From Patescibacteria group bacterium (GTDB taxonomy: Bacteria; Patescibacteriota; Minisyncoccia; Phycocordibacterales; UBA9973), in the NCBI GenBank assembly GCA_028868715.1, contig JAGWUB010000002.1, forward strand, positions 79,605 through 143,604: a DNA stretch of 64,000 nucleotides. Direction: 5' to 3'. Made by a program: the position numbers and the translations under genes. Numbering within the stretch: the first letter of the stretch is position 1; every line of letters begins with the position of its first letter. Below, piece by piece: positions 7,861-47,070 of this stretch. The notes under the pieces were generated by a model, which saw nothing but the letters and a program-made list of their open reading frames with translations, made no database searches and had not been told where the DNA came from.

Positions 7861-7928
7861 ATAGACTAAAACACTTTAATTTATAACATAAATTGTCCTA
7901 AAAATCTATATTTGTTAGAATAAATACT

Positions 7929-8183
7929 ATGGTTAAAAACAAAATCTCCACTGGTGTGGTGCATAAAATACCATTAGATTTAGAAAAGGCTCTCATCTCT
8001 AACCCAAAGGCGTTGGCATTATGGGAAGATATTACACCGCTGGCTCGCAATGAATGGATCTGTTGGGTTACCTCCGGTAAAAAAGCGGATACGAGAAATA
8101 TTCGTATCGCAAAAACACTTTCAAAACTCAAGGGCGGAATGCGCCGACCTTGTTGTTGGGCTGGGTGCACTCATCGTAGTTAA
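7929..8183 (+). CDS. YdeI/OmdA-family protein (bacteriocin-protection-like domain)
   Basis: ALWEDITPLARNEWICWV...TRNIRIAKTLSKL and C-terminal CCWAGCTH, typical of the YdeI/DUF1801-type C-terminal domain. The minus ORF 7898..8170 is its shadow. Confidence 0.55.
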   Translation: MVKNKISTGVVHKIPLDLEKALISNPKALALWEDITPLARNEWICWVTSGKKADTRNIRIAKTLSKLKGGMRRPCCWAGCTHRS

Positions 8184-12511: not shown

Positions 12512-13375
12512 ATGGCATTTAATTTAAAAATTCTTGAAGGGTCAGCCATTCCAGCAGATCTTTTACAGATTCCCCAACCACCTAAAAAGCTTTACTTGGC
12601 GGGCAGATTGCCACCGGAAGGCACTATATGCTTGGCAGTTGTTGGCTCCAGAAAAGCAACGACTTATGGCAAGGATATTGTAAAAAAACTTATTTCTGGA
12701 TTAAAGGGCTACCCTATTGCCATCGTTTCGGGATTGGCTGTCGGTATCGATTCCTTATCTCACGAGGCTGCATTACAAGCTGGTTTGATAGCAGTCGCTT
12801 TTCCAGGCTCAGGAATTTCAGCAGAAGCTTTCTTTCCACCCTCTAGCCTAAAACTCGCAGAAAAGATAATCGATGCAGGTGGATGTATTATCTCGGAGTA
12901 TGAGCCAAATATGAAAGCTCAATTTTATTTCTTTCCTGCAAGAAATAGATTAGTAGCTGGTCTCTCTAAAGCAGCACTAATTATAGAAGCACAAGATAAA
13001 TCTGGGACATTGATTACCGCTCGCATGGCTCTAGACTATAATAAAGAAGTGCTAGCGGTGCCGGGGCCTATTAATTCTGATTTTTCAAAGGGTACCAATA
13101 GATTAATCAGGCAGGGAGCTACTCCTATCACTTGCAGTGAAGATATATTAGAAGCTTTAGGTTTTAAAATTGATAAAGAAAGTAAACAGCAAAATCTTTT
13201 TGAAGACGCTAGACCAGAAGAAAAAGCAGTTTTGAAATTATTGACTGAGCCCTTAGAAAGAGATGAGCTCATTCGCCGTATGAAAATGCCCACCGCCGAA
13301 GCCAATGCTCTACTCTCGGTGATGGAAATAAAAGAATTAATAAAAGAAGAGCTCGGGGAAATTAGGTTGGCATAA
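12512..13375 (+). CDS. dprA: DNA processing protein DprA/Smf
   Basis: LAVVGSRKATTYG...VSGLAVGIDS Rossmann-like DprA motifs. Confidence 0.85.
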   Translation: MAFNLKILEGSAIPADLLQIPQPPKKLYLAGRLPPEGTICLAVVGSRKATTYGKDIVKKLISGLKGYPIAIVSGLAVGIDSLSHEAALQAGLIAVAFPGSGISAEAFFPPSSLKLAEKIIDAGGCIISEYEPNMKAQFYFFPARNRLVAGLSKAALIIEAQDKSGTLITARMALDYNKEVLAVPGPINSDFSKGTNRLIRQGATPITCSEDILEALGFKIDKESKQQNLFEDARPEEKAVLKLLTEPLERDELIRRMKMPTAEANALLSVMEIKELIKEELGEIRLA

Positions 13376-13380
13376 AATAG

Positions 13381-13420
13381 AAAAAGCCACAGAAACAGCA
13401 TATGACTCTTTCTATGGCTT
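13381..13420. terminator. putative bidirectional terminator between convergent dprA and 13430..13777
   Basis: Imperfect approximately 10-bp stem gccacagaaa / tttctatggc flanked by an A run and a T run. Confidence 0.35.
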
Positions 13421-13429
13421 AAAATACCA

Positions 13430-13777
13430 TTAACCTAAAAATAGGTGCATTTCTGCGTCGGAAAGCTGGATGTCCCTCACAAGCATGGTTATGAGAGGAA
13501 TTTCTGAAAGAAAGATCGTGAAGACCTTGCTACGCTCATCTCTCTCGTCGAAATATCCATCTCTGTTATAGTTTCCACGCTTGACACTGAAACTATATTT
13601 GCTCCCCGTGGCAGATAACAGCTGATTTACAATAACTGACACTAGAGCCAGATCCTTTTCTGTATATTCCATCGTAGCCATGGGGCGCAAGGTTACACAA
13701 ACCTGCTTCGTTAACCTTTCGGAATTTCTTATTAGAAATAGGAAAGGTTGTAGTTGTGAAGTAAATTTATTATACAT
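13430..13777 (-). CDS. hypothetical protein
   Basis: 115-aa ORF with no recognisable motif. Confidence 0.35.
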   Translation of the reverse strand: MYNKFTSQLQPFLFLIRNSERLTKQVCVTLRPMATMEYTEKDLALVSVIVNQLLSATGSKYSFSVKRGNYNRDGYFDERDERSKVFTIFLSEIPLITMLVRDIQLSDAEMHLFLG

Positions 13778-13920
13778 TCCAATCTCCTTTTCAATTTACT
13801 GAAACGATGCTTTTGGGCAACTAGAGTCCAAAATATAACATCATTTTTATCTTTCAATATCTAACCACAGAAATATAAAATTTGCAAAATAAATATCTTT
13901 CATGTAATACTGTTTGAGCA

Positions 13921-16134
13921 ATGAAACTTTTAATTGTTGAATCACCATCCAAAGCAAAGACCATCGAGAAATATCTCGAGGGGGCTTTTACTGTACGCGC
14001 ATCTGTCGGGCATATTCGTGATTTGCCAAAATCAAACAAGATTGCCATAGACATAGATGCAGGCTTTGTTCCGCATTATGAAATATCTAAAGGCAAAGAA
14101 AAGATCGTACACGAGCTACAAAGCTTAGCATCCAAAGCAAAAGAAATACTTTTAGCGACAGACCCTGACCGTGAAGGAGAAGCTATTGCTTGGCATATAG
14201 AAACACTTCTCAAGCAGGATAAAAAAGTAAAGGCGCCTATAGAGAGAGTTGCCTTTTATGAAATTACGAAAGAAGCGGTATCTGAAGCCCTAAAACATCC
14301 ACGAAAAATAGATACTAATTTACGAAAAGCCCAAGAAGCTCGTCGGGTACTAGATCGTCTTGTTGGTTACGATTTATCTGGCCTTATCTGGAAAAAGGTA
14401 CGCTACGGTCTTTCAGCTGGACGGGTTCAATCACCTGCTCTGCGCATAATCATGGAGCGTGAAAGAGAAATTCGTGTCTTCGTTCCAGAAAAATTTTGGA
14501 AGATCAAAGGACTTTTTGAAACCTTAAAAGAGGATAAGGTTATTTTGGAATGCTCTGAAGAACCAAGGGATGAAAAACTCGTAGAAAAAATAATGGAAGT
14601 AGGTAAAGATGGAACTTGGATCGTAAGTGTAGTTAAGGAATCAGAACAAAAACGCTCTCCCAGAGCACCATTTACAACTTCCACTCTTCAACAAACTGCT
14701 AGCTCAAGGCTAGGATACTCGCCTTCGCGTACGATGCAGATAGCCCAGAAGCTCTATGAAGCTGGCCATATCACCTATATGCGAACAGATAGTACAAACT
14801 TGTCCACCGCAGCTCAAGCTCAGATAGTTTCTTTTGTAAAAAAAGAATATGGGCCGGAGTATGCTGAAGCAAGAATATACAAAACAAAATCAAAAAATGC
14901 TCAAGAAGCTCATGAAGCTATTCGCCCGACTCATATTGATAATATGATTGCCGGCAGTGAAGAACAAGGCAGACTTTATAGATTGATCTGGGAACGCGCA
15001 GTCTCTTCACAAATGACGGATGCAAAATTATTGAAAACAAAAATTACTGCCAAGGTTGAGGGGCATGCAGATATACCAGAATTTGGCGCTAATGGATCCA
15101 GACTTTTATTCCCAGGATGGTTAAAGGTAGACAGCGCTGCTCGTGGAGATGATGTTGAGCTACCATTATGTAAGGTCGGAGAAAAATTAAAGCTCTTGAA
15201 CCTAATCAATGAAGAAAAATTTACTGAACCGCCAGGACGCTATAGTGAAGCAGGATTAATCAAAGAGCTGGAAAGTCGTGGCATCGGCAGACCCTCTACT
15301 TATGCTTCAATTATGCGAACTATTGAAGATAGAGGTTATGTAAAGAAAGAAGGTAAAACCTTGTTCCCCACTGATGTCGGCGAAGTGGTTTCTGATTTTT
15401 TAGAAAAACATTTTGCGAATTATATCTCGGACACATTTACCGCTGAAATGGAAGATGAATTAGATGAAATCTCTAGAGGCGAAAGAGAATATGAAAAAAC
15501 TCTAAAAGATTTCTATGGCCCATTTCTGAAAGACGTCAAATCAAAAGATAAATTAGAAAAAGCAACCAATTTAGGTGAAGCTCCGGAGAATATAAAATGT
15601 CCAAAATGTGGTAGCTCAATGATTATCAAGCTCTCAAGAGCTGGTAAGTTTTATTCCTGTTCAAAATACCCAGACTGCGACGGCGCCCTGATGCTAGACG
15701 GTACTGAGCTCCAAGGGCCAAAAGAAACTGGAGAAATGTGTCCAGAATGTGGCGATAAGAAGGGAAAGTCTGGTGGAGGTAAATTAATTGTACGTGAACG
15801 CAGAGACGGAAGCGGAACTTTTATATCCTGTTCTCGTTATCCAAAATGTAAATTTGTAAAAAGTGATGAAGCAGATGAAGCCAAAAAACGAACTGGAGTA
15901 ATCTGCCCTCTTTGTAAAAAGGGCGACATTACTGAACGTCGTGGAAAATTTGGGATTTTCTATTCTTGTTCAAATTATCCAAAATGTAAATTTGCGATCA
16001 AGGCCAAACCTACCGGCAAGATTTGTAAGGAGTGTGGAAGTCTGATGATGGAAGGTACGAAAACTATTCCAGAAAGATGTTCAAACAAAGCTTGTCCAAA
16101 TCACAACCCTCATAAGTTAAATAAAATTAAATAA
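13921..16134 (+). CDS. topA: DNA topoisomerase I with C-terminal zinc-ribbon repeats
   Basis: TOPRIM MKLLIVESPSKAKTIEKYLG, Tyr-domain motifs, four Cys4 ribbons. Confidence 0.9.
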   Translation: MKLLIVESPSKAKTIEKYLEGAFTVRASVGHIRDLPKSNKIAIDIDAGFVPHYEISKGKEKIVHELQSLASKAKEILLATDPDREGEAIAWHIETLLKQDKKVKAPIERVAFYEITKEAVSEALKHPRKIDTNLRKAQEARRVLDRLVGYDLSGLIWKKVRYGLSAGRVQSPALRIIMEREREIRVFVPEKFWKIKGLFETLKEDKVILECSEEPRDEKLVEKIMEVGKDGTWIVSVVKESEQKRSPRAPFTTSTLQQTASSRLGYSPSRTMQIAQKLYEAGHITYMRTDSTNLSTAAQAQIVSFVKKEYGPEYAEARIYKTKSKNAQEAHEAIRPTHIDNMIAGSEEQGRLYRLIWERAVSSQMTDAKLLKTKITAKVEGHADIPEFGANGSRLLFPGWLKVDSAARGDDVELPLCKVGEKLKLLNLINEEKFTEPPGRYSEAGLIKELESRGIGRPSTYASIMRTIEDRGYVKKEGKTLFPTDVGEVVSDFLEKHFANYISDTFTAEMEDELDEISRGEREYEKTLKDFYGPFLKDVKSKDKLEKATNLGEAPENIKCPKCGSSMIIKLSRAGKFYSCSKYPDCDGALMLDGTELQGPKETGEMCPECGDKKGKSGGGKLIVRERRDGSGTFISCSRYPKCKFVKSDEADEAKKRTGVICPLCKKGDITERRGKFGIFYSCSNYPKCKFAIKAKPTGKICKECGSLMMEGTKTIPERCSNKACPNHNPHKLNKIK

Positions 16135-22298: not shown

Positions 22299-23267
22299 TT
22301 ATTTGAGTGTGGTTTTTAATTTTTTCTCGTTGCCAAAACGCTCTATCGCCAGAGTAATCAGCCTATCTAAAAGTTTTGTTTGTGGAATACCACTTGCTTC
22401 CCAGAGCTTTGGGTACATACTGATATTAGTAAATCCTGGAATGGTATTTATCTCGTTCACAAGAACGGTACCATTTTTCTTTAAGAAAAAATCAACTCGA
22501 GCCAAGCCTTCACAATTTAGAGCCTGAAATGTTTTTATGGATAATTGTTGAATTTTTGTGGCAGTATTTTTGTGAATCTTTGCTGGAATCTCTGGAACTG
22601 CCCCCTCATCAATGTATTTAGCGTCATAAGAATAAAACTCTTGATTAGCAATAATTTCGCCAGGAATTGAGGCCATGGGATGATCGTTGCCTAAAACCGC
22701 ACACTCAATTTCCCTACCATTGATAAATTCTTCAACAATAATTTTATTGTCGTATTTAAAAGCTTCATTGACCGATTTTTTGAATTCTATTTCGTTTTTA
22801 GCCTTACTTACTCCTACAGATGAACCCATGTTTGCTGGTTTAATGAAAAGTGGTAGACCCAACTCCTTTTTAATTTTATTGAAATTTAATTTCTCACCAT
22901 TTTTTACAGTAATAAATTTCCCAATAGGCAGACCAGCATACCGCAAGAGCCTTTTCATAACATCCTTGTCCATACCAAGAGCGGATCCAAGAACTCCGGC
23001 ACCAACAAATGGCACCCCAGCGAGCTTTAAAAGTCCTTGCATGCTACCATCTTCACCAAACGGGCCATGCAACACAGGAAAGATTACATCAACTTTATTT
23101 AAGAGTGAAAAACTAAATTTTCCATTTTTGGGAATTTTAATTGGAACTATTTGGTATTTTGTCTTATCTAGTGCAGCTATTACATTTTTTGCAGAAGCCA
23201 ACGACACCTCATGTTCAGCTGATTTCCCCCCAAAAAGCACCCCGATCTTTAATTTCTTATTTGCCAT
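22299..23267 (-). CDS. ddl: D-alanine--D-alanine ligase
   Basis: ATP-grasp motifs with a Ddl N-domain. Confidence 0.85.
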   Translation of the reverse strand: MANKKLKIGVLFGGKSAEHEVSLASAKNVIAALDKTKYQIVPIKIPKNGKFSFSLLNKVDVIFPVLHGPFGEDGSMQGLLKLAGVPFVGAGVLGSALGMDKDVMKRLLRYAGLPIGKFITVKNGEKLNFNKIKKELGLPLFIKPANMGSSVGVSKAKNEIEFKKSVNEAFKYDNKIIVEEFINGREIECAVLGNDHPMASIPGEIIANQEFYSYDAKYIDEGAVPEIPAKIHKNTATKIQQLSIKTFQALNCEGLARVDFFLKKNGTVLVNEINTIPGFTNISMYPKLWEASGIPQTKLLDRLITLAIERFGNEKKLKTTLK

Positions 23268-23284
23268 GACGCTATTATACCTTA

Positions 23285-24019
23285 CTATTTCAAAATCGCA
23301 CTTTTTAGGTCGCTGGGTATATTTGTGAGTAGTCTATAACCCTTTTGGGTGATCAGAATCATATCTTCTATGCGTACCCCACCAAAACCTTTTAAATAAA
23401 TTCCTGGCTCCACAGTCATCACGCATCCTGTCGGAATAATATCTGTACTCTTGGGTTTAAAGTTCGGCCATTCATGGATGACGGTCCCTACTCCATGACC
23501 TAAGCCATGTTTAAAATTATTTTTATATTTTTTAGCTAAAAAACTGCGAGCTGATTTGTCTATCATCCATGCCTTCCTTTCACCATTTTTTATTTTATTC
23601 ATCGCTAACGTTTGCGCCTTTAATACATCCAAGTAAACTTTTTTTTGCTTCGCATTAGGTTTGCCCCAGAAATAAGTTCTGGTCATGTCGGAGCAGTAAT
23701 GGTTTACCGTCGTACCGATGTCAAACATCACTATGTCTCCTTTTTTTAATTTTGTCTTATTTGACTCATGGTGAATGTTGGCTGTATTTTTACCAAAAGC
23801 CACGATGGGTGGGAAAGATAAAATAGGTGCGCCGTGCTTGATAAATGACTTCTTGATAAAAGATTCCACTTGAAGCTCGGTAACACCGTCCTTCAAAAAA
23901 CTCACAGCATCCAGCAAAACTTTTTCACTAATTCTCTGCGCCTTGATAAGACTTGCAAGTTCTTTTTTATTTTTCACCGCCCGCACTTCATGCAGTAATT
24001 TTATTTTATTTATGTTCAT
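23285..24019 (-). CDS. M24 family metallopeptidase (Xaa-Pro/methionine aminopeptidase-like catalytic domain only)
   Basis: Pita-bread fold motifs DIGTTVNHYCSDMTRT, HGLGHGVG, GIRIED-like GVRIEDM. Confidence 0.7.
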   Translation of the reverse strand: MNINKIKLLHEVRAVKNKKELASLIKAQRISEKVLLDAVSFLKDGVTELQVESFIKKSFIKHGAPILSFPPIVAFGKNTANIHHESNKTKLKKGDIVMFDIGTTVNHYCSDMTRTYFWGKPNAKQKKVYLDVLKAQTLAMNKIKNGERKAWMIDKSARSFLAKKYKNNFKHGLGHGVGTVIHEWPNFKPKSTDIIPTGCVMTVEPGIYLKGFGGVRIEDMILITQKGYRLLTNIPSDLKSAILK

Positions 24020-24056
24020 TACAAATTCTTATATCAGCCATGGCTGATATAGTGTT

Positions 24057-25151
24057 TTAGAATAATTTGACTACGTCGTGATAGGTAACAATTAGCATCA
24101 TTAATATCAGCAGACCAAAACCAATCATGTTGGCAGTATTGGCAACTTTTGGGTTTATGGCTGAACCTTTAATCTTTTCAATAAGCAAAAAGAAAAGTCG
24201 GCCACCATCGAGTGCTGGAAACGGAATAATATTTATTATTGCCAAATTTATCGAGATAAGTGCAGCAAAAGACAAAAGGTAGGCAAAGCCAAATTGATAG
24301 GCGTCCCCTACTATACCAACCAAACCGACAGGCCCAGTGACAGATGCCAGGCTACCATGCCCCCTAACAGCATCTCTAATGAGCCCATAAAGCCCTATTA
24401 CCGTGCCTTTGGTTACAGATATGGTAAGTTTCATACCCTCAGAAAAAGCCTTTAAAATAGGCAGTTTTGCGGTCCCTATCTCATCCATCGATATGCCAAT
24501 GGTTGGTTGACCAGCGGTATTTGCTGGGGTCATTTTAGCTATATTAACCTCGGGGTTTCTGCCACGAGTGTAACCAATGTCTATTTCTTTAGATCCATGA
24601 GAAACTACAAAAGATTTTAAAGTGGTAGGATTTATTTCTCCAATTGAGTCTGTACTCGTGTTAACTGAAATTATTTTATCACCAGATTTGAGCCCAGCCT
24701 TAAATGCTGGAGATTGCGCCTCCACTGAGACAACCACCAAGCTTACATTTTCGAGTGGATATCCCTTTACTTGACTATCAATTGAAGTTGGAAGTCCGGA
24801 CATAAATCCAAAAGAAAACAACACCCAAGCTAATAAAAAGTTAGCAAATATTCCGGCAAACAACACAATAGCTTGCTGATACTTTGGTTTATTAATAAAA
24901 CTCCTACCAGCATCTGGGCCGTTCATATTTTCTTCATCTGGAGTTTCACCAAAGATTTTCACAAAACCGCCTATCGGCAACAAATTGAAAGAATAAAGAG
25001 TTTCCCCTTTTTTAAAACTAAATACTTTTGGAGGAAAACCAAAACCAAATTCATCTACTCGAATTCCAAATCTCTTCGCAGTGAAAAAATGCCCAAATTC
25101 ATGAGCTAGAACTAAAACTAATAAAATTACTATAAATATAATTATGCTCAT
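24057..25151 (-). CDS. rseP: RIP zinc metalloprotease RseP (site-2 protease) with PDZ
   Basis: HEFGHFF HExxH within a TM segment, PDZ segment, C-terminal LDG motif. Confidence 0.85.
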   Translation of the reverse strand: MSIIIFIVILLVLVLAHEFGHFFTAKRFGIRVDEFGFGFPPKVFSFKKGETLYSFNLLPIGGFVKIFGETPDEENMNGPDAGRSFINKPKYQQAIVLFAGIFANFLLAWVLFSFGFMSGLPTSIDSQVKGYPLENVSLVVVSVEAQSPAFKAGLKSGDKIISVNTSTDSIGEINPTTLKSFVVSHGSKEIDIGYTRGRNPEVNIAKMTPANTAGQPTIGISMDEIGTAKLPILKAFSEGMKLTISVTKGTVIGLYGLIRDAVRGHGSLASVTGPVGLVGIVGDAYQFGFAYLLSFAALISINLAIINIIPFPALDGGRLFFLLIEKIKGSAINPKVANTANMIGFGLLILMMLIVTYHDVVKLF

Positions 25152-25158
25152 AAAAAAT

Positions 25159-25710
25159 TTACCCCATTATTTCCTTTTGTTTCTTTTCAAAAGTTGCTTC
25201 TAAATTTCCATTAACTTCATCAATAATCTTTTGGAGCTCATCCTTCGCGCGGAATTTTTCATCTTCAGTCATTTCACTCTTTTCTTCTTTGCTTTCTACG
25301 TCTTTCCAAACACTTTCTCGTTCTCGACGAACGGTAATTCTGCTTTCTTCCAATTTTTCTTTTAATACTTTTACTAAAGTTTGTCGGGATTCTGTAGTTA
25401 ATTGTGGAAAAATTACTCTCATACCTAGATCATCCACCACTACTGACAAGCCCAAATTTGACCCAGCAATAGCTTTTTCAATACCTTTTATCTGGGTTTT
25501 ATCCCAAGGTGCGATACGTAGGGTTTTTGGATCTTCAATTGACACCGAGGCCACATTTTTTAGTGGCACAAAAGAACCATAAGATTCTACCACTACACTA
25601 TCTAGCACCATAGGTGAAGCACGGCCAATATTGAGCTCTCGGTATTCTTTTCCTAAAAATTCCTCTACTTTTTTAAGTTCTGTTTTAAAGTTCGAAAAGT
25701 TGTATTGCAT
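25159..25710 (-). CDS. frr: ribosome recycling factor
   Basis: Typical 183-aa RRF sequence. Confidence 0.9.
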   Translation of the reverse strand: MQYNFSNFKTELKKVEEFLGKEYRELNIGRASPMVLDSVVVESYGSFVPLKNVASVSIEDPKTLRIAPWDKTQIKGIEKAIAGSNLGLSVVVDDLGMRVIFPQLTTESRQTLVKVLKEKLEESRITVRRERESVWKDVESKEEKSEMTEDEKFRAKDELQKIIDEVNGNLEATFEKKQKEIMG

Positions 25711-25733
25711 AGTTATATTGTAACATTTTAAAA

Positions 25734-26456
25734 TTAATTTGAGAAATTTGGTGTAATTAATGCCACGGATTCCATTAGAGTTTTGGGAGAACTTCCTGGC
25801 ATACGCAGAAATTCACGAACTTTAAAAAAGTGTTCAAAAACTCTTGTGTCAAAGACTCCTTTTGAGATTTTTTTATGCAAACTAGCCTCAAGTGCATTTA
25901 AAAATTTTAAAGCTTTGGCGCGAGGAGAATCCACTGATAAAATTTCATTTTCGTCTTCATCTTCCGGCTCTTCTTCCGTTAATAATTCTTTAATGAAATC
26001 AATTCTATCTTTGGGCGACATTTTTATAAATTTTTCAGCTTCTTTGACTTCTTCTGTTAGATTCGATTTGGTAGATATAAAATACAATCTAGAAAAAAGT
26101 GTTTTCAAAAGAACACTCGCATCCGGGGTAATAATAAAGAAATGTGTGTTTTCAATTGGCTCTTCAAAAATTTTTAATAGACTGTTTTGTGCTTCAAGTA
26201 GAAAATTATTAGCAGAAATTATAAATATTTTCTTGCCCGCAGAAAGACCTTTTTCTGATACGTATGATTTTAAATTACGGGCATCGTCAATCTTAAAAGA
26301 ATCTGTGCTTATTTGAATAAGGTCTGGATTAGCAACAGTACTTACCCCGATGCTTTTTAAAAACTTTAATATTTCTGGCACTATGTCGGCTTGCGCACCT
26401 TCTATTAGATATGCATGGTGTAGATTATTTTTATCAAAATATTCCTTTATGCTCAT
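25734..26456 (-). CDS. holB: DNA polymerase III delta' subunit-like (short)
   Basis: HAYLIEG and LLKIFEEP clamp-loader motifs. Confidence 0.6.
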   Translation of the reverse strand: MSIKEYFDKNNLHHAYLIEGAQADIVPEILKFLKSIGVSTVANPDLIQISTDSFKIDDARNLKSYVSEKGLSAGKKIFIISANNFLLEAQNSLLKIFEEPIENTHFFIITPDASVLLKTLFSRLYFISTKSNLTEEVKEAEKFIKMSPKDRIDFIKELLTEEEPEDEDENEILSVDSPRAKALKFLNALEASLHKKISKGVFDTRVFEHFFKVREFLRMPGSSPKTLMESVALITPNFSN

Positions 26457-27479
26457 TTATTTCTTACTTAAAACTGTTTTTTTATATACATCTAAATGTT
26501 CGAGTGCTATGCCAGTACCTTTTGCTACGCAAAAAAGAGGATCTTCGGCCAAGCTTGCTTTTACTCCAGTTTTTAGATAAATCAAATCAGTAAAATTTCG
26601 TAGAAGTGAAGAGCCGCCCGTCATAATAATACCGTGGTCAATAATATCAGAAGCAAGCTCCGGTGGAGTTTCTTGCAAGACGTTTTTTATGGCTTTGACT
26701 ATTTGTTTTAATTCTCCATCTATGGCACGCACGATTTCGTTAGTTGATACTTGAGCACTTCGTGGCAAACCTTGGATAAAATCTCTACCTTTGATAGTTA
26801 CTTGTAGTTCTTCTTCTAAGGGTACGGCGGCACCAATTTTTATTTTTACTTCTTCAGCAGTTTTATCACCGATGGCTAGGTTGAAGGTTTTTTTAATATA
26901 ATCAGCAATAGCAGCATCTATTTTGTTTCCAGCACATTTCACTGAAGTAGAGGCAACAATTCCACCAAGGGAAATAACTGCCACGTCGGTAGTGCCTCCG
27001 CCAATATCTACTACCATGTATCCCCTTGATTCATAAATAGGAATACCTGCGCCGATAGCTGCTAGGATGGGCTCTTTGACCACGTAAGCATTTTTGGCAC
27101 CAGCTCGTATAGCAGCTTCCACTACAGCTCTCCTTTCGGTGGATGTGACACCTGCTGGTACTGATACCATAACGTCTGGTTTAAAAAAACTAAAACGCCC
27201 CATAGCTTTATTTATAAAGTAATGAAGCATAGCCTCGGTTACTCGATAGTCTGCAATAACTCCGTCTTTCATCGGACGATAGGTAATGATAGATTCAGGA
27301 GTTTTTCCAATCATGTCTTTAGCTTCAAAGCCAATGGCTAAAATTTTATTATCTTGTTCTGAAACTGCAACCACAGAAGGTTCATTTAAAACTATCCCCT
27401 TGCCAGGTAAAAATACTAGGGTATTTGCCGTTCCTAAGTCTATACCCAATTTTCTTGAGAAAATATCCATAAAAGCCAT
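26457..27479 (-). CDS. mreB: rod shape-determining protein MreB
   Basis: GIDLGTANTLVF actin-fold phosphate-1 motif. Confidence 0.9.
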   Translation of the reverse strand: MAFMDIFSRKLGIDLGTANTLVFLPGKGIVLNEPSVVAVSEQDNKILAIGFEAKDMIGKTPESIITYRPMKDGVIADYRVTEAMLHYFINKAMGRFSFFKPDVMVSVPAGVTSTERRAVVEAAIRAGAKNAYVVKEPILAAIGAGIPIYESRGYMVVDIGGGTTDVAVISLGGIVASTSVKCAGNKIDAAIADYIKKTFNLAIGDKTAEEVKIKIGAAVPLEEELQVTIKGRDFIQGLPRSAQVSTNEIVRAIDGELKQIVKAIKNVLQETPPELASDIIDHGIIMTGGSSLLRNFTDLIYLKTGVKASLAEDPLFCVAKGTGIALEHLDVYKKTVLSKK

Positions 27480-27515
27480 AAAAGCAATATAGCATAAATA
27501 TGCTAGAATTAAAAT

Positions 27516-29456
27516 ATGAAAATCGTTAACATAATTCCGCTGAAAAAGGGGCTCTTGCAGAACGACCTGACTTATTTCACCACCAAGGAGATTGAAAGTG
27601 GTAGTATTGTTGCTATCATGCTTCGCAATAAAAAAGTTTTAGGTTTGGTCATCTCATGCTTGAATGTATCGGATACCAGAATGAACATAAAGGGTATGGA
27701 CTTTAATCTAAAGAAGATTGTTGAAGTCAAAGAAAAATCAATTTTCTTAAAAGAATACATAGAATCCGTGCTCCTGGTCAGTGAATATTTTGCTTGTAGT
27801 AAAAATAATGCTATCACATCTCTAATACCAGCTATTTTTAGAGAAGAATACGATAAAATTACTTCCACAAAAGCCAGACCTATTGCTAATAGAAAAAAAG
27901 AAAAAAGTATTAAAGCTGAAAAGCTACTCTTGCAAGAGCCATTTGAAAATCGTATTTCAATATATAAAACATTAATTCGTGAAAATTTTGCCAGGAAAAA
28001 ATCAGTTTTTATTGTATTGCCGACTGAAAATGACATTAAGATTTTCGAAGAACAACTTTCTAAGGGAATAGAATCTTTTACCTATGCTTTCCATGGGGGA
28101 CTTAGCCAAAAGAAGATTATTGAAAAATTTAAGGAATTAGTAAATGACGAGCACCCAGTATTGCTTTTGGGTACTGCGCCATTTTTATCTATACCTAGGG
28201 CTGATATGGGAGCCATAGTGTTAGAACATGAGAGCTCTAATAGCTATAAAATGATAGCCAGACCTCATATTGATCTACGAATTTTTGTGGAACTTTTTGC
28301 TTCAAAAATCAATGCGAAGTTTATATTAAGCGATACTCTTTTGCGTTTTGAAACCATAGCCAGGCGCGAATTAGATAGATTAATACCAATGCACCCTTTG
28401 TCTTTTAGGATTAACTTTGATGGAGAGATTAAAATTGAAAATCCCAGACCCAGGTCAGAGACTTCGAGTTCTAAATTTAAAATATTTTCTGAAAATAGCA
28501 TAGAAGAGATAAAAAATTCAATTCTAAAAAAGAAGAATGTATTTATCTTTACCCTGCGAAAGGGCCTAGCTACACAAACTTTATGTAGAGACTGTGGTGA
28601 AATAGTAAGTTGTGATAAATGTTTAGCCCCACTGGTGCTTTATAATTCTACCACTGACAAAGGACGATTTTTTGTTTGTAATCGTTGTGGTGAAGAAAAG
28701 AATACAGAAACAGTCTGTAGTCACTGCCATAGTTGGAATTTAGTTCCATTGGGCATTGGTACAGATACTGTATCGGAAGAATTAAATAAAATTTTTCCAA
28801 AAGTTAAAATTTTAAAACTAGACAAGGAAGCTGTGAAAACTAAAAAGGAGGCTGATAAAATTATAAAAGAATTTGAAGAAAACCCTGGCACTATACTTGT
28901 CGGCACCGAAATGGCAACCTATTATCTAAAAAATAAAGTTGACCTATCTATTGTCGCAGCATTTGATTCATTTTGGAGCATACCAAATTTTAAAATGAGT
29001 GAGAAAATAATTCAGCTAATAATTTCCATTATTTCCAATACGCAGGGTAAATTTATTATCCAAACTAAAAACGATCAAGATCCTGCCATTTTAGCAATTC
29101 AATCTAGAAATTTATTGTCTTTTGTACGCACCGAGCTGGAGGATAGAAAAAATCTTTCTTATCCACCCTTTAAACGTTTTATTAAAATTAAACATATTGG
29201 AAATAAGGTAGATACTTTAAAGGCAAAAGAATTACTGGAAAAAACCTTGGTGGATTACAGGCCTATGATTTTTAGCGGATTTATGGCTCAAATAAAAAGT
29301 AGGTACATTACCAATGCCTTGATAAAACTAGAAAATAACTACTGGTCATTACCCGAACTATCATCTGACTCTGGCTTGGACAAAAATCTATTAGCGAAAC
29401 TTTTAACACTTCCGCTTTCTTTTGAAGTATTTGTAGATCCAGAAGATTTGTTATAG
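27516..29456 (+). CDS. priA: PriA-like primosomal protein N' with intact Cys-rich region but degenerate Walker A/B
   Basis: The sequence aligns along PriA, and the CxxC x4 block is present. The Walker A position reads QEPFENRI instead of GxGKT. The DEEH box reads LEHE. Confidence 0.65.
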   Translation: MKIVNIIPLKKGLLQNDLTYFTTKEIESGSIVAIMLRNKKVLGLVISCLNVSDTRMNIKGMDFNLKKIVEVKEKSIFLKEYIESVLLVSEYFACSKNNAITSLIPAIFREEYDKITSTKARPIANRKKEKSIKAEKLLLQEPFENRISIYKTLIRENFARKKSVFIVLPTENDIKIFEEQLSKGIESFTYAFHGGLSQKKIIEKFKELVNDEHPVLLLGTAPFLSIPRADMGAIVLEHESSNSYKMIARPHIDLRIFVELFASKINAKFILSDTLLRFETIARRELDRLIPMHPLSFRINFDGEIKIENPRPRSETSSSKFKIFSENSIEEIKNSILKKKNVFIFTLRKGLATQTLCRDCGEIVSCDKCLAPLVLYNSTTDKGRFFVCNRCGEEKNTETVCSHCHSWNLVPLGIGTDTVSEELNKIFPKVKILKLDKEAVKTKKEADKIIKEFEENPGTILVGTEMATYYLKNKVDLSIVAAFDSFWSIPNFKMSEKIIQLIISIISNTQGKFIIQTKNDQDPAILAIQSRNLLSFVRTELEDRKNLSYPPFKRFIKIKHIGNKVDTLKAKELLEKTLVDYRPMIFSGFMAQIKSRYITNALIKLENNYWSLPELSSDSGLDKNLLAKLLTLPLSFEVFVDPEDLL

Positions 29457-29462
29457 AAAAAA

Positions 29463-29825
29463 TTAGGGTAGATTTTCTACATCTATTACCTCCTCTTTCT
29501 TTAAAAATTTATTGATTTTTTTACTCATGGTAATTGTTCTCGTAGAACCAATTACAATTATTAAAATTCCGATTACAATCAATATAATAGCTATATTCTG
29601 GAATGATATATTTCCAGGAGTTAATTTAAATAGAGTTACTCCAATAACTATTACGGTCAAACTAGTACGAATATAAGCTAGGTAAGTAGCCTCATTTGTA
29701 AGTATAGTTCGCTCTATCGCCAAGTAATCACGTAAGATAAGTTCTTTGGCTAAAAATTCTTGGTAAACTCGTGGGTCTATATCTTTATTATTTTTAAAAA
29801 TACCTTTGTAAAAATGAATATTCAT
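29463..29825 (-). CDS. DUF202/YidH-family membrane protein
   Basis: RDYLAIERTILTNEATYLAYIRTSL motif followed by TM helices. Confidence 0.6.
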   Translation of the reverse strand: MNIHFYKGIFKNNKDIDPRVYQEFLAKELILRDYLAIERTILTNEATYLAYIRTSLTVIVIGVTLFKLTPGNISFQNIAIILIVIGILIIVIGSTRTITMSKKINKFLKKEEVIDVENLP

Positions 29826-29845
29826 AACTTTACTATAGCATAATT

Positions 29846-30544
29846 TTAATAATTTAATGGGGTAACCAATATTGTAAATTCACCCTTTTGTTTTATCGGA
29901 TTTTTGTTCAAATATTCCAACAACTCAGCTGGTGTGCCTGTCTTAAATTCTTCGTAAATTTTTGTCAGTTCTCGGGCAATGCAAACTTTTCTAGTTGGAC
30001 AAAATTTGATAAGTGATTCTAGGGTTTTTAAAATTCTATGTGGAGATTCGTAAAAAATATATGTACGCTTAGCTTCTGCAATCTCTTTAAATAAAGTCTC
30101 TCTACCCTTTTTGTGTGGCAAAAAACCAAGAAAAGTAAACTCATGAGTCGGCAATCCAGAGGCTGAAAGAGCTGTTATGATAGCAGTAGACCCAGGAATA
30201 GGAATCACCTCCACTTCACTATTTACGCCATGGCTGAAATAAGATTTAATCTTTGAAACAAGCATTGCTCCAGGGTCAGAAATACCGGGAGTGCCAGCAT
30301 CTGAGACTAATGCTAAATCTTTCCCCTCTTCTAAAAGTCCAAGGATTTTATCTACTTTTGCGAGCTTACTTTGCGCATGATAGCTCATTGTAGGTTTTTT
30401 TATTTCGTATTTATCTAAAAGTTTTTTAGTAACCCGTGTATCTTCACACAGTATGAGATCAACATTTTTCAATGTTTCAATGGCTCGAAACGTTATGTCT
30501 CCCATGTTTCCTATTGGCGTAGCTACAACGTAAAATTTTGACAT
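29846..30544 (-). CDS. rsmI: 16S rRNA (cytidine1402-2'-O)-methyltransferase
   Basis: Tetrapyrrole-methylase fold, VATPIGNMGDIT...LCEDTR motifs. Confidence 0.8.
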   Translation of the reverse strand: MSKFYVVATPIGNMGDITFRAIETLKNVDLILCEDTRVTKKLLDKYEIKKPTMSYHAQSKLAKVDKILGLLEEGKDLALVSDAGTPGISDPGAMLVSKIKSYFSHGVNSEVEVIPIPGSTAIITALSASGLPTHEFTFLGFLPHKKGRETLFKEIAEAKRTYIFYESPHRILKTLESLIKFCPTRKVCIARELTKIYEEFKTGTPAELLEYLNKNPIKQKGEFTILVTPLNY

Positions 30545-30551
30545 TGGTTTT

Positions 30552-30998
30552 TTATTTCCTATACTTTTTTGTACGCCACTTATCGGCGATTTTCACTCGA
30601 GTGAGTGAACGTTCTAGTTCGGCCTCAAAATGTTCGAAGTCTACATGCTCCTTATTTTCCATAGCTTTTCGCATTTCTTCAGCTTTGTTTTTTGCTTGTG
30701 CTATTTTTTCATCAGAAATTTCTGAAAGATGTTCAGCGAAATCGGCAAGTATAGCCACTTCGGTAATACCAGTATCACCTTTTTTCACTTCAATAAAACC
30801 ACCGACTACTGCCATAGGCACATACTCACCACCGGTGACAGCCACTACATCTCCAGATGCTAGTCCAGAAATCAAGGGAATATGGTCAGGCAGAATTGTG
30901 ATTTCCCCTTCAGTCGTAGGTAGAGATACTTGGTCTACCATCTCCTCTAATATCAATTTCTCTGGAGTTATTATTTTTAATTTAAGTTGTTTAGTCAT
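30552..30998 (-). CDS. atpC: ATP synthase epsilon subunit
   Basis: Position in the operon and sequence. Confidence 0.8.
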   Translation of the reverse strand: MTKQLKLKIITPEKLILEEMVDQVSLPTTEGEITILPDHIPLISGLASGDVVAVTGGEYVPMAVVGGFIEVKKGDTGITEVAILADFAEHLSEISDEKIAQAKNKAEEMRKAMENKEHVDFEHFEAELERSLTRVKIADKWRTKKYRK

Positions 30999-31001
30999 AT
31001 T

Positions 31002-32387
<1,386 letters not shown>

Positions 32388-37276: not shown

Positions 37277-37591
37277 TTAGTATTCTCGGCGTCCGCCTCC
37301 ATTGCCATATCCGCCATTACCACCTGTGCGTGGTGGACGAGCTTCCATTGGGCGTGCTTCGTTGACAGTAAGTTTGCGTCCTTCGAAATCTTGATCGTTG
37401 AACATTGAAATAGCTTTTGTAGCTTCTTCCTGTGTTGACATTTCTACGAATCCAAAACCTTTTGAACGACCAGACATCTTGTCCATGATAATCACAGCGG
37501 AAACAACGTTTCCAGCCTGTGCGAAAAGCTCTTTGAGAGCGTTTTCTTGTGTACTGTAAGGGAGTCCCCCTACATATAGCTTTGTAGCCAT
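37277..37591 (-). CDS. RNA-binding protein with RRM domain and Gly-rich tail
   Basis: RNP2-like LYVGGL and RNP1-like KGFGFVEM. C-terminal GGNGGYGNGGGRR. Confidence 0.8.
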   Translation of the reverse strand: MATKLYVGGLPYSTQENALKELFAQAGNVVSAVIIMDKMSGRSKGFGFVEMSTQEEATKAISMFNDQDFEGRKLTVNEARPMEARPPRTGGNGGYGNGGGRREY

Positions 37592-46134: not shown

Positions 46135-47070
46135 TTAAGACTCTACAGCAATTTGCGCTAATTTGATAGCTCCCTCCTTAGATTTGGCTACAACTAGAAA
46201 TAATGCTCGATGGCAAAACACAGCGTCGGGCACTCCAGTAATTTTCTGTAATTCTTCATCTCTTTGTCCCGCCCAAGAGGCAGGAAAGTTTTTTCGATTT
46301 TCAAAACTTTTTGGATTTTTTCGAACTGCCCTTATTCCCCAAGTCGTATCTGGTCTAGGATAAATGATAAAAATGGGTTCAGCTAGTTTATATAAAATAC
46401 TATCAAATGGATAATGAGTATCTAAGGTAAGAATTCTTTTATCTTCAGTATTGTTGTAAATAGCAGTGACTTTCTCTTCTGCCTCAAACAGATCTTTCGC
46501 CAAAATTACTTCTCTTTTTAAAATATTTTTGGCAATCTCTACTCCTTCTAAAAAAACTTTATCTATTTCTAGATTTTCTTCGTTCCACGTTGGTTGCATA
46601 GAAGAAAAATAGTCTTGGATTGTATATGGTGATATATTTTCAAATTTATTAGTAAAAATATCAATCCCGTTGTCGGGGCCATCTATCGGCGCAACTAATC
46701 TTTTTCTTATATTATCTGCAACCTTTTGACTACCACAAATTTCTGCACCAAATTTTTTCCAAACCAATCCAAAAGAAGAGTACTCAATTCCACTCTCGTC
46801 TGCTCCAGCGCCACCAATTTGATGATGGTCAAACCTATTTTTAGCCTCGTCATATATTCCTCCAACGTCATAGACATAATCTCCATTTTCTATAATTTCT
46901 GGATCTCGAGTGCGGATAACCTCAAATTTTTGATTTTGTTTTTCCAAGACAAAAGACAACACAGCGGTGGCAAAGATGTCATCCGAGTGAAAGCCTCCGT
47001 TGTGGGTTATTAATTTTTTGATTGATTCTTTGTTTTCTTGCATAAATTTAAGTGTTTTCAAATACATCAT
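46135..47070 (-). CDS. MYG1/UPF0160 family metal-dependent hydrolase
   Basis: HNGGFHSDDIFA N-terminal motif. Confidence 0.7.
   Translation of the reverse strand: MMYLKTLKFMQENKESIKKLITHNGGFHSDDIFATAVLSFVLEKQNQKFEVIRTRDPEIIENGDYVYDVGGIYDEAKNRFDHHQIGGAGADESGIEYSSFGLVWKKFGAEICGSQKVADNIRKRLVAPIDGPDNGIDIFTNKFENISPYTIQDYFSSMQPTWNEENLEIDKVFLEGVEIAKNILKREVILAKDLFEAEEKVTAIYNNTEDKRILTLDTHYPFDSILYKLAEPIFIIYPRPDTTWGIRAVRKNPKSFENRKNFPASWAGQRDEELQKITGVPDAVFCHRALFLVVAKSKEGAIKLAQIAVES

What the first reader, a model, noticed from the sequence alone, without database searches (positions are those of the whole stretch)
27516..29456. PriA homolog with intact zinc-binding CRD but Walker A and DEEH motifs lost (predicted ATPase-dead primosome protein)
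- The protein aligns with PriA through the 3' DNA-binding N-terminus, both RecA-like lobes and the CxxC-x4 cysteine-rich region (CRDCGEIVSCDKC...CNRCGEEKNTETVCSHCHSW).
- At the Walker A position it reads LLLQEPFENRISIYKTL, where PriA has LLxGVTGSGKTEVY.
- At the Walker B/DEEH position it reads IVLEHESSNSYK, where PriA has IVIDEEHDSSYK.
- The flanking segments align well (VFIVLPTE... / LVMVPEI..., ...HGGLSQKK / HSGLNDSE). This is therefore motif erosion rather than misalignment.
- The implication is a PriA retained for DNA and protein binding or replication-restart scaffolding, but without helicase activity.
Basis: partly seen in the sequence, partly recalled or inferred. Interest (0 to 1): 0.6.

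Follow-up and report, generated by a model that had tools for sequence, protein, structure and literature searches.

The report
ATPase-dead PriA in Parcubacteria
This gene encodes a well-conserved version of the replication-restart protein PriA that keeps its DNA-fork-binding and zinc-finger parts but has lost every ATP-using motif, a state proven so far only in Deinococcus and found here in hundreds of ultra-small Parcubacteria (CPR) species.

Summary
ORF 27516-29456 (+, 646 aa) is a full-length PriA homologue: hhalign probability 100% and E 6e-42 against E. coli PriA. The AlphaFold model has pLDDT 93.8 and its best PDB match is PriA (8FAK_H, TM 0.81).

- **Kept:** the 3' DNA-binding domain, both RecA-like lobes, all four CxxC pairs and the C-terminal domain.
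- **Lost motifs:** Walker A GVTGSGKT reads QEPFENRI, and DEEH reads EHES.
motif III SAT reads SDT, the motif VI GRAGR arginine finger is deleted, and the winged-helix domain with the pre-motif-I segment is absent.

This is fixed replacement, not ongoing erosion:
- All 149 distant cluster representatives (33-72% identity) and 80 of 80 species genomes carry the same replaced motifs in intact ORFs.
- dN/dS is 0.05-0.13.
- The Arg at the old Walker lysine position is invariant.

The organism is a Patescibacteria (Nomurabacteria/Paceibacteria) MAG, and at least 548 species genomes encode a relative.

Best reading: an obligate PriA pseudohelicase acting as an ATP-independent fork-recognition and DnaB-recruitment scaffold. 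The precedents are Deinococcus-Thermus PriA (Lopper 2015) and E. coli priA300 (K230R). It is a new member of a known kind, of moderate interest.

I could not test whether a canonical PriA also exists in these genomes.

The parts
27516..29456 (+). priA-like gene (646 aa plus TAG stop): PriA pseudohelicase
   Evidence: ORF. hhalign probability 100% to E. coli PriA. AF2 pLDDT 93.8, and the top PDB hit is PriA 8FAK_H at TM 0.81. Identical to the NCBI MAG protein KGL67_02360, 'Patescibacteria group bacterium'.
27516..27866 (+). 3' DNA-binding domain (aa 1-117)
   Evidence: PF17764 at 27.8 bits, residues 14-105. hhalign aligns it to E. coli residues 16-110. Pocket residues: E. coli Y18 = Y20 (99% conserved), K61 = K66 (K/R 100%), D17 -> T/S19, G37 -> R37.
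27867..27917 (+). Short 17-aa linker where canonical PriA has the winged-helix domain and the pre-motif-I segment
   Evidence: Gap of about 80-100 E. coli residues in hhalign and MAFFT. It is the least conserved and lowest-pLDDT stretch. The second-best PDB hit is the E. coli PriA winged-helix deletion protein 6DCR.
27918..28385 (+). RecA-like lobe 1 (aa 135-290), ATP-binding motifs replaced
   Evidence: AF2 secondary structure; alignments.
27921..27971 (+). Former motif I / Walker A: KLLLQEPFENRISIYKT in place of WLLAGVTGSGKTEVYLS. No P-loop glycines; Lys -> invariant Arg146.
   Evidence: R146 is 100%, Q140 92% and Y150 99% conserved in 126 sequences.
28215..28250 (+). Former motif II / Walker B: IVLEHESSNSYK in place of VIVIDEEHDSSYK. 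The catalytic Glu is replaced by a basic residue and His by Ser/Asn; acidic residues remain at positions 1 and 3.
   Evidence: [ED]237 is 100% and E239 99% conserved; position 238 is R/H/K.
28251..28289 (+). Loop at the position of the PriA aromatic-rich loop (motif IIa): same length, different residues (P250, D253 and R255 conserved)
   Evidence: Role of the E. coli loop: PMC5175346 and PMC10175261.
28323..28337 (+). Former motif III: ILSDT in place of ILGSAT (Ala -> conserved Asp273)
28491..29105 (+). RecA-like lobe 2 (aa 326-530) with the CRR inserted. Motif IV (R348, G350) and part of motif V (G463-T464-E465) are kept.
28581..28736 (+). Cysteine-rich region: four CxxC pairs (two predicted Zn sites) and near-invariant W407
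   Evidence: All eight Cys are 98-100% conserved. W407 (97%) sits at the position of E. coli T482 in the PriB-docking surface.
28995..29069 (+). Former motif VI: the GRAGRAGK arginine-finger segment is deleted (IISNT-----QG); the flanking Q516-T517 is kept
29157..29453 (+). C-terminal domain (aa 548-646)
   Evidence: hhalign aligns it to E. coli residues about 632-729. AF2 predicts a beta-rich fold with high pLDDT.
27501..27509 (+). Extended -10 promoter-like box TGCTAGAAT, 6 nt upstream of the ATG (probably a leaderless mRNA)
   Evidence: TGnTAnAAT ends 6-7 nt before the ATG in 56 of 79 related loci.
27486..27494 (-). Mirror extended -10-like box TGCTATATT facing the divergent mreB. Together with the box above it forms the palindrome TAGCATAAATATGCTA (27490-27505).

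Best explanation
The gene encodes the PriA orthologue of a Parcubacteria/Paceibacteria (Patescibacteria) bacterium. It has become an obligate pseudohelicase.

**Shown computationally**
- The protein keeps the PriA fold minus the winged-helix domain.
- Both Zn-binding CxxC clusters are intact.
- The gene is under strong purifying selection in a fixed housekeeping locus.
- Every nucleotide-handling element of the SF2 core is replaced or deleted:
  - P-loop glycines and lysine
  - catalytic Glu and His of DExH
  - motif III
  - the motif VI arginine finger
  - the segment before motif I

**Inferred**
- It cannot bind or hydrolyse ATP, so it cannot translocate or unwind.
- It still recognises abandoned forks and D-loops. 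The likely contacts are the 3'-end pocket of the 3'BD, the wedge loop after former motif II, the retained DNA-contact motifs IV and V, and the CRR/lobe 2/CTD surface that threads lagging-strand ssDNA in E. coli.
- It then serves as a passive platform that recruits the replicative helicase DnaB. Recruitment could be direct, as shown for D. radiodurans PriA, or go through a lineage-specific partner docking on the CRR, where W407 is near-invariant.
- If the lagging-strand arm must be cleared, other helicases would do it. RecG and UvrD/PcrA are annotated in a cultured relative.
For: **Identity and fold**
- sequence and profile matches to PriA.
- AF2 pLDDT 93.8 and pTM 0.92. PriA chains fill ranks 1-9, with TM 0.81 to the fork-bound 8FAK_H and 0.69 to the winged-helix deletion protein 6DCR.

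**Motif loss**
- motif replacements in the window protein.
- no hidden motif in any reading frame.

**Lineage-wide and fixed**
- 120 close homologues (59-74% identity) all share the replaced motifs.
- 149 representatives of 50%-identity clusters (33-72% identity) all lack GxGK[ST] at the motif I position, DExH and GRxGR.
- invariant R146 and eight conserved Cys.
- at least 548 GTDB species genomes encode a relative.
- the best 80 loci are intact ORFs with none of the canonical motifs.

**Selection and locus**
- dN/dS 0.05-0.13 (0.077 at dS 0.61).
- the former motif regions are as conserved as, or more conserved than, the protein average.
- stable housekeeping synteny (mreB adjacent in 78 of 80, holB in 76 of 80).

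**Precedent from papers**
- PMC4504706: D. radiodurans PriA has K->R in Walker A and no ATPase or helicase activity. It binds ssDNA and forks and interacts with DnaB.
- PMC5778457: E. coli K230R abolishes ATPase and helicase activity, yet priA300 cells are near wild type.
- PMC10175261: fork recognition in E. coli rests on contacts made by the 3'BD, HD1 loop, CRR and CTD.
Against: - No biochemistry exists for this family. ATP binding by an unconventional site cannot be excluded by sequence alone. Acidic residues persist at two Walker B positions, and an Arg sits at the Lys position.
- I could not search whole Paceibacteria genomes, so a second, canonical PriA elsewhere is not excluded. None lies in the 64-kb window or within +-10 kb of the gene in 80 loci.
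- Two of the four E. coli 3'-end pocket residues differ (D17 -> T/S, G37 -> R). The aromatic residues of the wedge loop are replaced as well, so fork specificity may differ.
- The partner proteins are unknown. DnaB, SSB and DciA are not in the window.
Confidence: 0.7

Rival explanations
1. It is a neofunctionalised PriA paralogue. A canonical PriA elsewhere in the genome would do replication restart, and this protein would use the PriA DNA-binding scaffold for another job, for example chromosome or cell-cycle coupling given the conserved divergent arrangement with mreB.
For: - mreB is adjacent and divergent in 78 of 80 loci, with a shared palindromic promoter region.
- The TIGR00595 score falls below the equivalog cutoff.
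- Whole genomes could not be searched.
Against: - The whole block (rseP-frr-holB-mreB | priA | rsmI-atp) is syntenic, so adjacency alone says little.
- The full PriA domain set apart from the winged helix is retained, including the 3'-end pocket Tyr and Lys and the CRR.
- These are reduced genomes, where paralogue retention is unlikely (general knowledge).
- No second PriA hit was found in about 1.5 Mb of lineage DNA held here.
- JGI assigns these proteins 'primosomal protein N''.
Confidence: 0.12
2. It is still an active NTPase or helicase that uses a non-canonical catalytic site.
For: - The former site is highly conserved and charged: R146, E/D145, E/D237, E239 and D273.
- The review notes proposals of a second, weaker nucleotide site in E. 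coli PriA.
Against: - All P-loop glycines are gone.
- K->R alone kills the E. coli enzyme.
- The catalytic Glu is replaced by a basic residue.
- The motif VI arginine finger is physically deleted.
- D. radiodurans PriA, which has milder changes, has no measurable ATPase.
Confidence: 0.05
3. It is a decaying pseudogene or an annotation or alignment artefact.
For: NCBI annotates several members as 'hypothetical protein'.
Against: - 80 of 80 ORFs are intact across species.
- dN/dS is 0.05-0.13.
- Identity across the lineage is 59-74%.
- The AF2 model has pLDDT 93.8.
- A promoter-like box is conserved upstream.
- Three aligners agree on the motif positions.
Confidence: 0.01

Closest known systems
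Deinococcus-Thermus PriA pseudohelicase (D. radiodurans PriA; Lopper, Boone & Morrow 2015, PMC4504706)
   Same: [quoted passage not shown]
- The Walker lysine is replaced by arginine, as with the invariant R146 here.
- The rest of the PriA architecture, including the CRR, is retained.
- PriB and DnaT are reported absent from D. radiodurans and were not seen here, though I searched only the 64-kb window.
   Different: - The phylum is different (Patescibacteria/Parcubacteria). I could not test whether the two losses are independent, because I had no Deinococcus sequence in hand.
- The loss here is more radical: no P-loop glycines at all, motif III altered, the motif VI arginine finger deleted, and the winged-helix domain and pre-motif-I segment absent.
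- No biochemistry exists for this family. D. radiodurans PriA was shown to lack ATPase and helicase activity and to bind forks and DnaB.
E. coli PriA K230R (priA300) and K230A/D engineered ATPase-dead variants
   Same: - Arg at the Walker lysine position.
- ATPase, helicase and translocase activities are abolished, yet primosome assembly and near-normal growth remain (PMC5778457).
- This shows that a helicase-dead PriA can perform restart.
   Different: - Those are single-residue laboratory mutants in an otherwise canonical protein.
- In E. coli they depend on the PriB pathway. PriB is not expected in this lineage (not searched genome-wide).
Canonical PriA replication-restart helicase (E. coli / K. 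pneumoniae; PDB 4NL4, 6DGD, 8FAK; TIGR00595)
   Same: - Same domains: 3'BD, two RecA-like lobes, a CRR with four CxxC inserted in lobe 2, and a CTD.
- hhalign probability 100% and TM up to 0.81.
- Motif IV and part of motif V are retained.
   Different: - No winged-helix domain.
- Motifs I, II, III and VI are replaced or deleted.
- About 21% sequence identity.
- Scores below the TIGR00595 equivalog cutoff (201.9 against 230.35).
E. coli PriA winged-helix deletion protein (PDB 6DCR)
   Same: A PriA without the WH domain. It is the second-best structural match. This shows the remaining domains fold and assemble without WH.
   Different: It is an engineered construct with intact ATPase motifs.

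Membership tests
PriA (primosomal protein N' / replication restart protein) | N-terminal 3' DNA-binding domain (PF17764) | tested here: met
   27.8 bits against the 22.7 cutoff, residues 14-105. hhalign aligns it from E. coli residue 16.
PriA (primosomal protein N' / replication restart protein) | SF2 core of two RecA-like lobes, homologous along the whole length | tested here: met
   hhalign probability 100%, E 5.7e-42, 590 columns. Foldseek ranks 1-9 are all PriA chains, with TM up to 0.81.
PriA (primosomal protein N' / replication restart protein) | Cysteine-rich region CxxC-Xn-CxxC-Xn-CxxC-Xn-CxxC (two Zn) inserted in lobe 2 | tested here: met
   C357/360, C366/369, C388/391 and C401/404, each 98-100% conserved. 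Zn binding itself was not tested.
PriA (primosomal protein N' / replication restart protein) | C-terminal domain following lobe 2 | tested here: met
   Aligned through E. coli residue 729. Confident AF2 fold.
PriA (primosomal protein N' / replication restart protein) | Winged-helix domain between the 3'BD and lobe 1 | tested here: not met
   About 80-100 residues are missing and only a 17-aa linker remains. Whether canonical PriAs of other phyla also lack the WH domain I know only from memory, not from a test here.
PriA (primosomal protein N' / replication restart protein) | Helicase/ATPase motifs I (GxGKT), II (DExH), III (SAT) and VI (QxxGRxGR) | tested here: not met
   They read QEPFENRI, EHES and SDT, and motif VI is a 5-aa deletion. 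No motif in any frame.
PriA (primosomal protein N' / replication restart protein) | Score above the curated equivalog cutoff (TIGR00595, 'replication restart helicase PriA') | tested here: not met
   201.9 bits against 230.35. All other NCBIfam PriA equivalogs are far below their cutoffs.
PriA (primosomal protein N' / replication restart protein) | Functions in origin-independent DnaB reloading at abandoned forks | not testable with these tools
   Needs genetics or biochemistry.
PriA pseudohelicase (Deinococcus-Thermus type, PMC4504706) | PriA architecture with non-consensus Walker A and B boxes conserved across a lineage | tested here: met
PriA pseudohelicase (Deinococcus-Thermus type, PMC4504706) | Arg in place of the Walker A lysine | tested here: met
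   R146 aligns with E. coli K230 and is 100% conserved in 126 sequences.
PriA pseudohelicase (Deinococcus-Thermus type, PMC4504706) | No ATPase or helicase activity, with retained ssDNA, fork and DnaB binding | not testable with these tools
   Biochemical property, predicted only.
PriA pseudohelicase (Deinococcus-Thermus type, PMC4504706) | Common descent with the Deinococcus-Thermus PriA clade | not tested
The host organisms belong to Patescibacteria.

The most novel reading that the evidence does not exclude
The former ATP cleft has not merely been lost but re-used. The invariant Arg146, together with the conserved acidic residues E/D145, E/D237, E239 and D273, would form an internal charge network that stands in for the nucleotide.

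This network would hold the two lobes and the CRR permanently in a fork-bound-like, pore-open state. In support, the AF2 model matches fork-bound 8FAK (TM 0.81) better than apo or ADP-bound PriA (about 0.69).

The protein would then be a constitutively 'on', ATP-independent, single-protein DnaB recruiter, without PriB, DnaT or DnaC. It might be the main DnaB-loading factor of these minimal cells, docking partners through the near-invariant W407 surface of the CRR.
Probability: 0.15. Interest if true: 0.65.

Novelty: new member of a known kind. Interest (0 to 1): 0.4.

Why it matters

This finding adds a second, very large lineage, Parcubacteria/Paceibacteria of the Candidate Phyla Radiation. 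At least 548 species genomes encode a relative. All 149 sampled representatives of 50%-identity clusters carry the ATPase-dead form, and up to 1,945 such clusters score closer than canonical PriA. The ATPase-dead state there is ancient, fixed and strongly selected.

Why that is useful:
- It is natural evidence that the essential, conserved job of PriA is fork recognition and primosome nucleation, not unwinding.
- It offers a minimal PriA (no winged helix, no ATPase) for structural and mechanistic work on how DnaB is recruited without PriB, DnaT or DnaC.
- Annotation pipelines name these proteins inconsistently: 'hypothetical protein', 'PriA 3primeBD protein' or 'primosomal protein N''. CPR gene inventories may therefore miscount PriA.

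Tried and rejected
- **Alternative gene model or hidden motifs.** A six-frame scan of 27300-29600 found no Walker A or DExH, and stops lie immediately upstream of the ATG. Rejected.
- **Pseudogene.** Rejected by intact ORFs in 80 of 80 species and dN/dS of 0.05-0.13.
- **Second PriA.**
  - tblastn with E. coli PriA against the window plus 80 loci (about 1.5 Mb) found only the one gene per locus.
  - The annotation table of the cultured relative Minisyncoccus archaeiphilus (PMC12281837 supplement) is truncated in the library. It shows DnaB, RecG, UvrD/PcrA and SSB but no PriA term in the stored part. Inconclusive.
- **The search for related loci with the 126-sequence alignment A1.** Failed because no stretch was conserved enough. 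It was repeated with the 26-sequence A2.
- **Foldseek against AFDB50**, to obtain the taxonomic spread. The library was not available.
- **Literature searches** for PriA with CPR, Parcubacteria or Patescibacteria, and for other degenerate-motif PriAs. Nothing describes this family; only the Deinococcus precedent turned up.
- **Model coordinates are not exposed**, so I could not test whether R146 makes salt bridges with E239 or D273, or measure the CRR rotation directly.
- **Compensating loader or helicase in the window.** Pfam annotation of about 60 ORFs found topA, dnaX, holB, dprA, an ExoX-like exonuclease, rmuC and scpA/B. It found no DnaB, SSB, DciA, DnaC/I, RecG or UvrD.
- **One Walker-A regex hit.** 'GEFARGKS' in P0183 lies in the helix after the former P-loop, not at the motif I position. 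It is a chance match.
Full report
**1. The observation**

The ORF lies exactly where reported: 27516..29456 on the + strand, 646 aa, ATG start. In-frame stop codons sit directly upstream, and the divergently transcribed mreB begins 36 bp away, so the gene model cannot be extended. Neither a Walker A (G..GK[ST]) nor a DExH/D string occurs in any of the six frames of 27300-29600.

The protein is identical to a deposited MAG protein. That record is 'hypothetical protein KGL67_02360', Patescibacteria group bacterium, on a contig of 287,952 bp.

**2. It is a PriA homologue**

| Test | Result |
|---|---|
| Pfam PriA_3primeBD | 27.8 bits, above the 22.7 cutoff |
| NCBIfam PriA equivalogs | the top 14 of 15 hits; best TIGR00595 at 201.9 bits, all below the curated cutoffs (230.35 for TIGR00595) |
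| phmmer against PDB | only E. coli and K. pneumoniae PriA significant, E 3.5e-26 |
| Family profile (126 sequences) vs E. coli PriA | hhalign probability 100%, E 5.7e-42, 590 columns, E. coli residues 16-729 |
| AlphaFold2 model from that alignment | mean pLDDT 93.8, pTM 0.92 |
| Foldseek against PDB | PriA chains at ranks 1-9 |

The best structural matches are 8FAK_H (the fork/PriB-bound state, TM 0.81) and then 6DCR (the E. coli PriA winged-helix deletion protein, TM 0.69). Other SF2 helicases such as Mfd and DEAD-box proteins follow only at E around 1e-9.

**3. Motif states**

Three aligners agree (HMMER, MAFFT, hhalign).

| Element | E. coli PriA | This protein |
|---|---|---|
| Motif I | WLLAGVTGSGKTEVY | KLLLQEPFENRISIY |
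| Motif II | VIVIDEEHDSSYK | AIVLEHESSNSYK |
| Motif III | ILGSATPA | ILSDTLLR |
| Motif VI | QVAGRAGRAGKQGEVVLQT | SIISNT-----QGKFIIQT |

- The model places a beta-strand at 136-140 and a helix from 143. This is the strand-loop-helix geometry of a P-loop, which supports the motif I register.
- The GRxGR arginine finger of motif VI is physically deleted.
- About 80-100 residues of E. coli PriA have no counterpart. They cover the winged-helix domain and the segment preceding motif I. Only a poorly conserved 17-residue linker remains.
- Several elements are retained:
  - motif IV (FxxRKGxA; R348 and G350)
  - the GTE part of motif V
  - all eight CRR cysteines
  - the C-terminal domain

**4. Fixed replacement, not decay**

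*Close homologues.* The 120 closest homologues (59-74% identity, all about 640-700 aa) share the replaced motifs. Their consensus reads LLFQAPLEDRISFYKT, IILEHESSNAYKM and FILSDTLLRFET. The former motif regions have a mean top-residue frequency of 0.77-0.87, against 0.73 for the whole protein.

*Distant homologues.* An exhaustive phmmer search of 1.84 billion cluster representatives found 1,945 with E <= 1e-30. By my rescaling of the PDB E-value, canonical E. coli PriA would score about 1e-22 there. All 149 listed representatives other than the query's own cluster (33-60% identity) show the same pattern:
- [DEN]R[ILFM][SAG]xY at motif I
- E[HKRN]E[SN]S..Y[KR] at motif II
- [GAS]D[TS] at motif III
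- the motif VI deletion

*Conserved positions.* In the 126-sequence alignment, the Arg at the old Walker lysine position (R146) is invariant. Q140, Y150, E239 and D273 are at least 92% conserved. Position 237 is always Glu or Asp. Position 238, the former catalytic Glu, is Arg, His or Lys.

*Species genomes.* A scan of GTDB species-representative genomes found at least 548 genomes with a relative.
- The best 80 are labelled Nomurabacteria, Paceibacterota, Minisyncoccia or Patescibacteria.
- In all 80 the gene is one uninterrupted ORF (641-732 codons stop-to-stop) with no GxGK[ST] or DExH.

*Selection.* Nei-Gojobori dN/dS for the ten closest pairs is 0.05-0.13. It is 0.077 for the least saturated pair, at dS 0.61.

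*Synteny.* The locus is syntenic. mreB is divergent and adjacent in 78 of 80 loci. holB is present in 76, frr in 72, rseP in 70 and rsmI in 66.

**5. Context in the window**

The 64 kb is ordinary housekeeping DNA of a small genome:
- topA, relA/spoT, parB, murA, miaA, ddl, map, rseP, frr, holB, mreB
- the priA-like gene itself
- a DUF202 protein, rsmI and the atp operon
- prfA-like RF, L25, gatB, obg, dnaX, dprA, an ExoX-like exonuclease, rmuC, scpA/B and tRNA synthetases

There is no DnaB, SSB, DciA, DnaC/I, RecG or UvrD in the window. No second PriA hit occurs there or within +-10 kb of the gene in the 80 loci.

**6. What is known**

- Lopper et al. (PMC4504706) showed that PriA helicase motifs I and II are not conserved in the Deinococcus-Thermus phylum, with Lys->Arg in Walker A.
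  - D. radiodurans PriA has no measurable ATPase or helicase activity.
  - It binds ssDNA (Kd about 215 nM) and forks (about 109 nM), and it forms a complex with its DnaB.
  - E. coli K230R (priA300) abolishes ATPase, helicase and translocase activity, yet the cells behave almost like wild type.
  - Helicase activity is required only in the PriA-PriC pathway and a few special situations.
- The cryo-EM structure 8FAK (PMC10175261) shows that fork recognition rests on contacts from the 3'BD, an HD1 loop wedged at the junction, the WH domain, and a pore formed by CRR, HD2 and CTD around lagging-strand ssDNA.
- Full-text searches combining PriA or 'primosomal' with Candidate Phyla Radiation, Parcubacteria or Patescibacteria returned nothing describing this family. 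Searches for other degenerate-motif PriAs also found nothing.

**7. How it most likely works**

*Shown.* This is a folded PriA lacking the winged-helix domain, with two intact Zn clusters, under strong purifying selection. Every nucleotide-handling element is lost.

*Inferred.*
- The protein neither binds nor hydrolyses ATP, so it does not translocate.
- It still recognises abandoned forks. Of the four E. coli 3'-end pocket residues, Y18 and K61 are kept (Y20 at 99%; K66 as K/R). D17 becomes Thr/Ser and G37 becomes Arg.
- The loop after former motif II keeps its length. It has its own conserved residues (P250, D253, R255) in place of W333 and Y335, the residues that couple DNA binding to ATPase in E. 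coli. This fits a wedge that no longer needs to signal to an ATP site.
- On the CRR, E. coli D438 and S481 of the PriB-docking surface are conserved (D359, S406). T482 is replaced by a near-invariant Trp (W407, 97%), which suggests a lineage-specific partner surface.
- By analogy with D. radiodurans, that partner is most simply DnaB itself.
- Where a nascent lagging strand must be removed, another helicase would have to do it. The annotation table of the cultured relative Minisyncoccus archaeiphilus lists RecG, UvrD/PcrA, DnaB and SSB.

*A weak hint.* The predicted ground state matches the fork-bound conformation (8FAK, TM 0.81) better than the apo or ADP-bound crystal forms, even the winged-helix-deleted one (about 0.69). 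I could not inspect the coordinates, so this stays a hint.

**8. Rivals**

| Rival | Status | My probability |
|---|---|---|
| Neofunctionalised paralogue with a canonical PriA elsewhere | Not excluded, because I could not search whole genomes. Unlikely given the retained PriA-specific domains, the reduced genomes and the absence of any second hit in about 1.5 Mb of lineage DNA. | about 0.12 |
| Cryptic ATPase | Very unlikely given the deleted arginine finger and absent P-loop | about 0.05 |
| Pseudogene or artefact | Refuted | about 0.01 |

**9. Verdict**

The kind, a PriA pseudohelicase, is already known from Deinococcus-Thermus. This is a new and much larger lineage with a more radical version: no P-loop glycines, no arginine finger and no winged helix. 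I rate it a new member of a known kind, with interest about 0.4.

It would matter as natural evidence that fork recognition and scaffolding, not unwinding, is the indispensable PriA function. It would also serve as a minimal model for PriB/DnaT/DnaC-independent DnaB recruitment in CPR bacteria.

Noticed in passing
window 27480-27515 (palindrome 27490-27505); related loci L002-L081 upstream of the priA-like ATG: The 36-bp mreB/priA divergent intergenic region holds a palindrome, TAGCAT-AAAT-ATGCTA. It reads as two back-to-back extended -10 boxes: TGCTAGAAT towards priA and TGCTATATT towards mreB. In 56 of 79 related loci TGnTAnAAT ends 6-7 nt before the ATG and there is no Shine-Dalgarno sequence, which suggests a leaderless priA-like mRNA.
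   Followed up: partly
window 8180-9229 (-) and 25734-26456 (-): The clamp-loader genes are short. dnaX is only 349 aa (AAA+ and delta2 domains only), so it probably lacks the tau C-terminal domains that bind DnaB and Pol III alpha in E. coli. holB is 240 aa and matches only the C-terminal part of the delta2 profile. This bears on how DnaB is coupled to the replisome in this lineage.
   Followed up: no
proteins P0001, P0005, P0061, P0130, P0142, P0237, P0295, P0320: Public annotation of this family is inconsistent. The names used are 'hypothetical protein', 'PriA 3primeBD protein', 'primosomal protein', 'primosomal protein N'' and 'Primosome assembly protein PriA'. The cause is that the proteins score below all NCBIfam PriA equivalog cutoffs.
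   Followed up: partly
loci L002-L081 versus window 22299-32378: The gene order is strongly conserved around the gene across 80 species: ddl/map - rseP - frr - holB - mreB | priA-like | (DUF202) - rsmI - atpC - atpD. The small DUF202 membrane protein (29463-29825) is present in only 7 of 80 loci.
   Followed up: partly
window 54611-55999 (-), 4980-5627 (-), 5642-6034 (-), 13430-13777 (-), 50319-50804 (-), 7898-8170 (-), 63544-63852 (+): Several ORFs have no Pfam match, including one of 462 aa lying between a glycosyltransferase-4 (MraY-like) gene and scpB. For 50319-50804 there are overlapping ORFs on the opposite strand, so the gene call is uncertain.
   Followed up: no
window 48153-49937 (+) and 12512-16134 (+): DNA-metabolism genes are clustered elsewhere in the window. 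An ExoX-like DEDD exonuclease is immediately followed by rmuC, and dprA lies upstream of topA.
   Followed up: no
window 37277-37591 (-) and 46135-47070 (-): There is a 104-aa RRM_1 (RNA recognition motif) protein and a MYG1/UPF0160-family exonuclease homologue. From memory, both families are better known from eukaryotes.
   Followed up: no
PMC12281837 supplementary file 2 (Minisyncoccus archaeiphilus annotation): In the stored (truncated) part of the gene table of this cultured Minisyncoccia species there is no entry matching primosomal, priA, K04066, COG1198 or PF17764, and no DUF721/DciA. DnaB, RecG, UvrD/PcrA and SSB are listed. It is unclear whether that species lacks the gene or whether the table is simply cut off.
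   Followed up: partly
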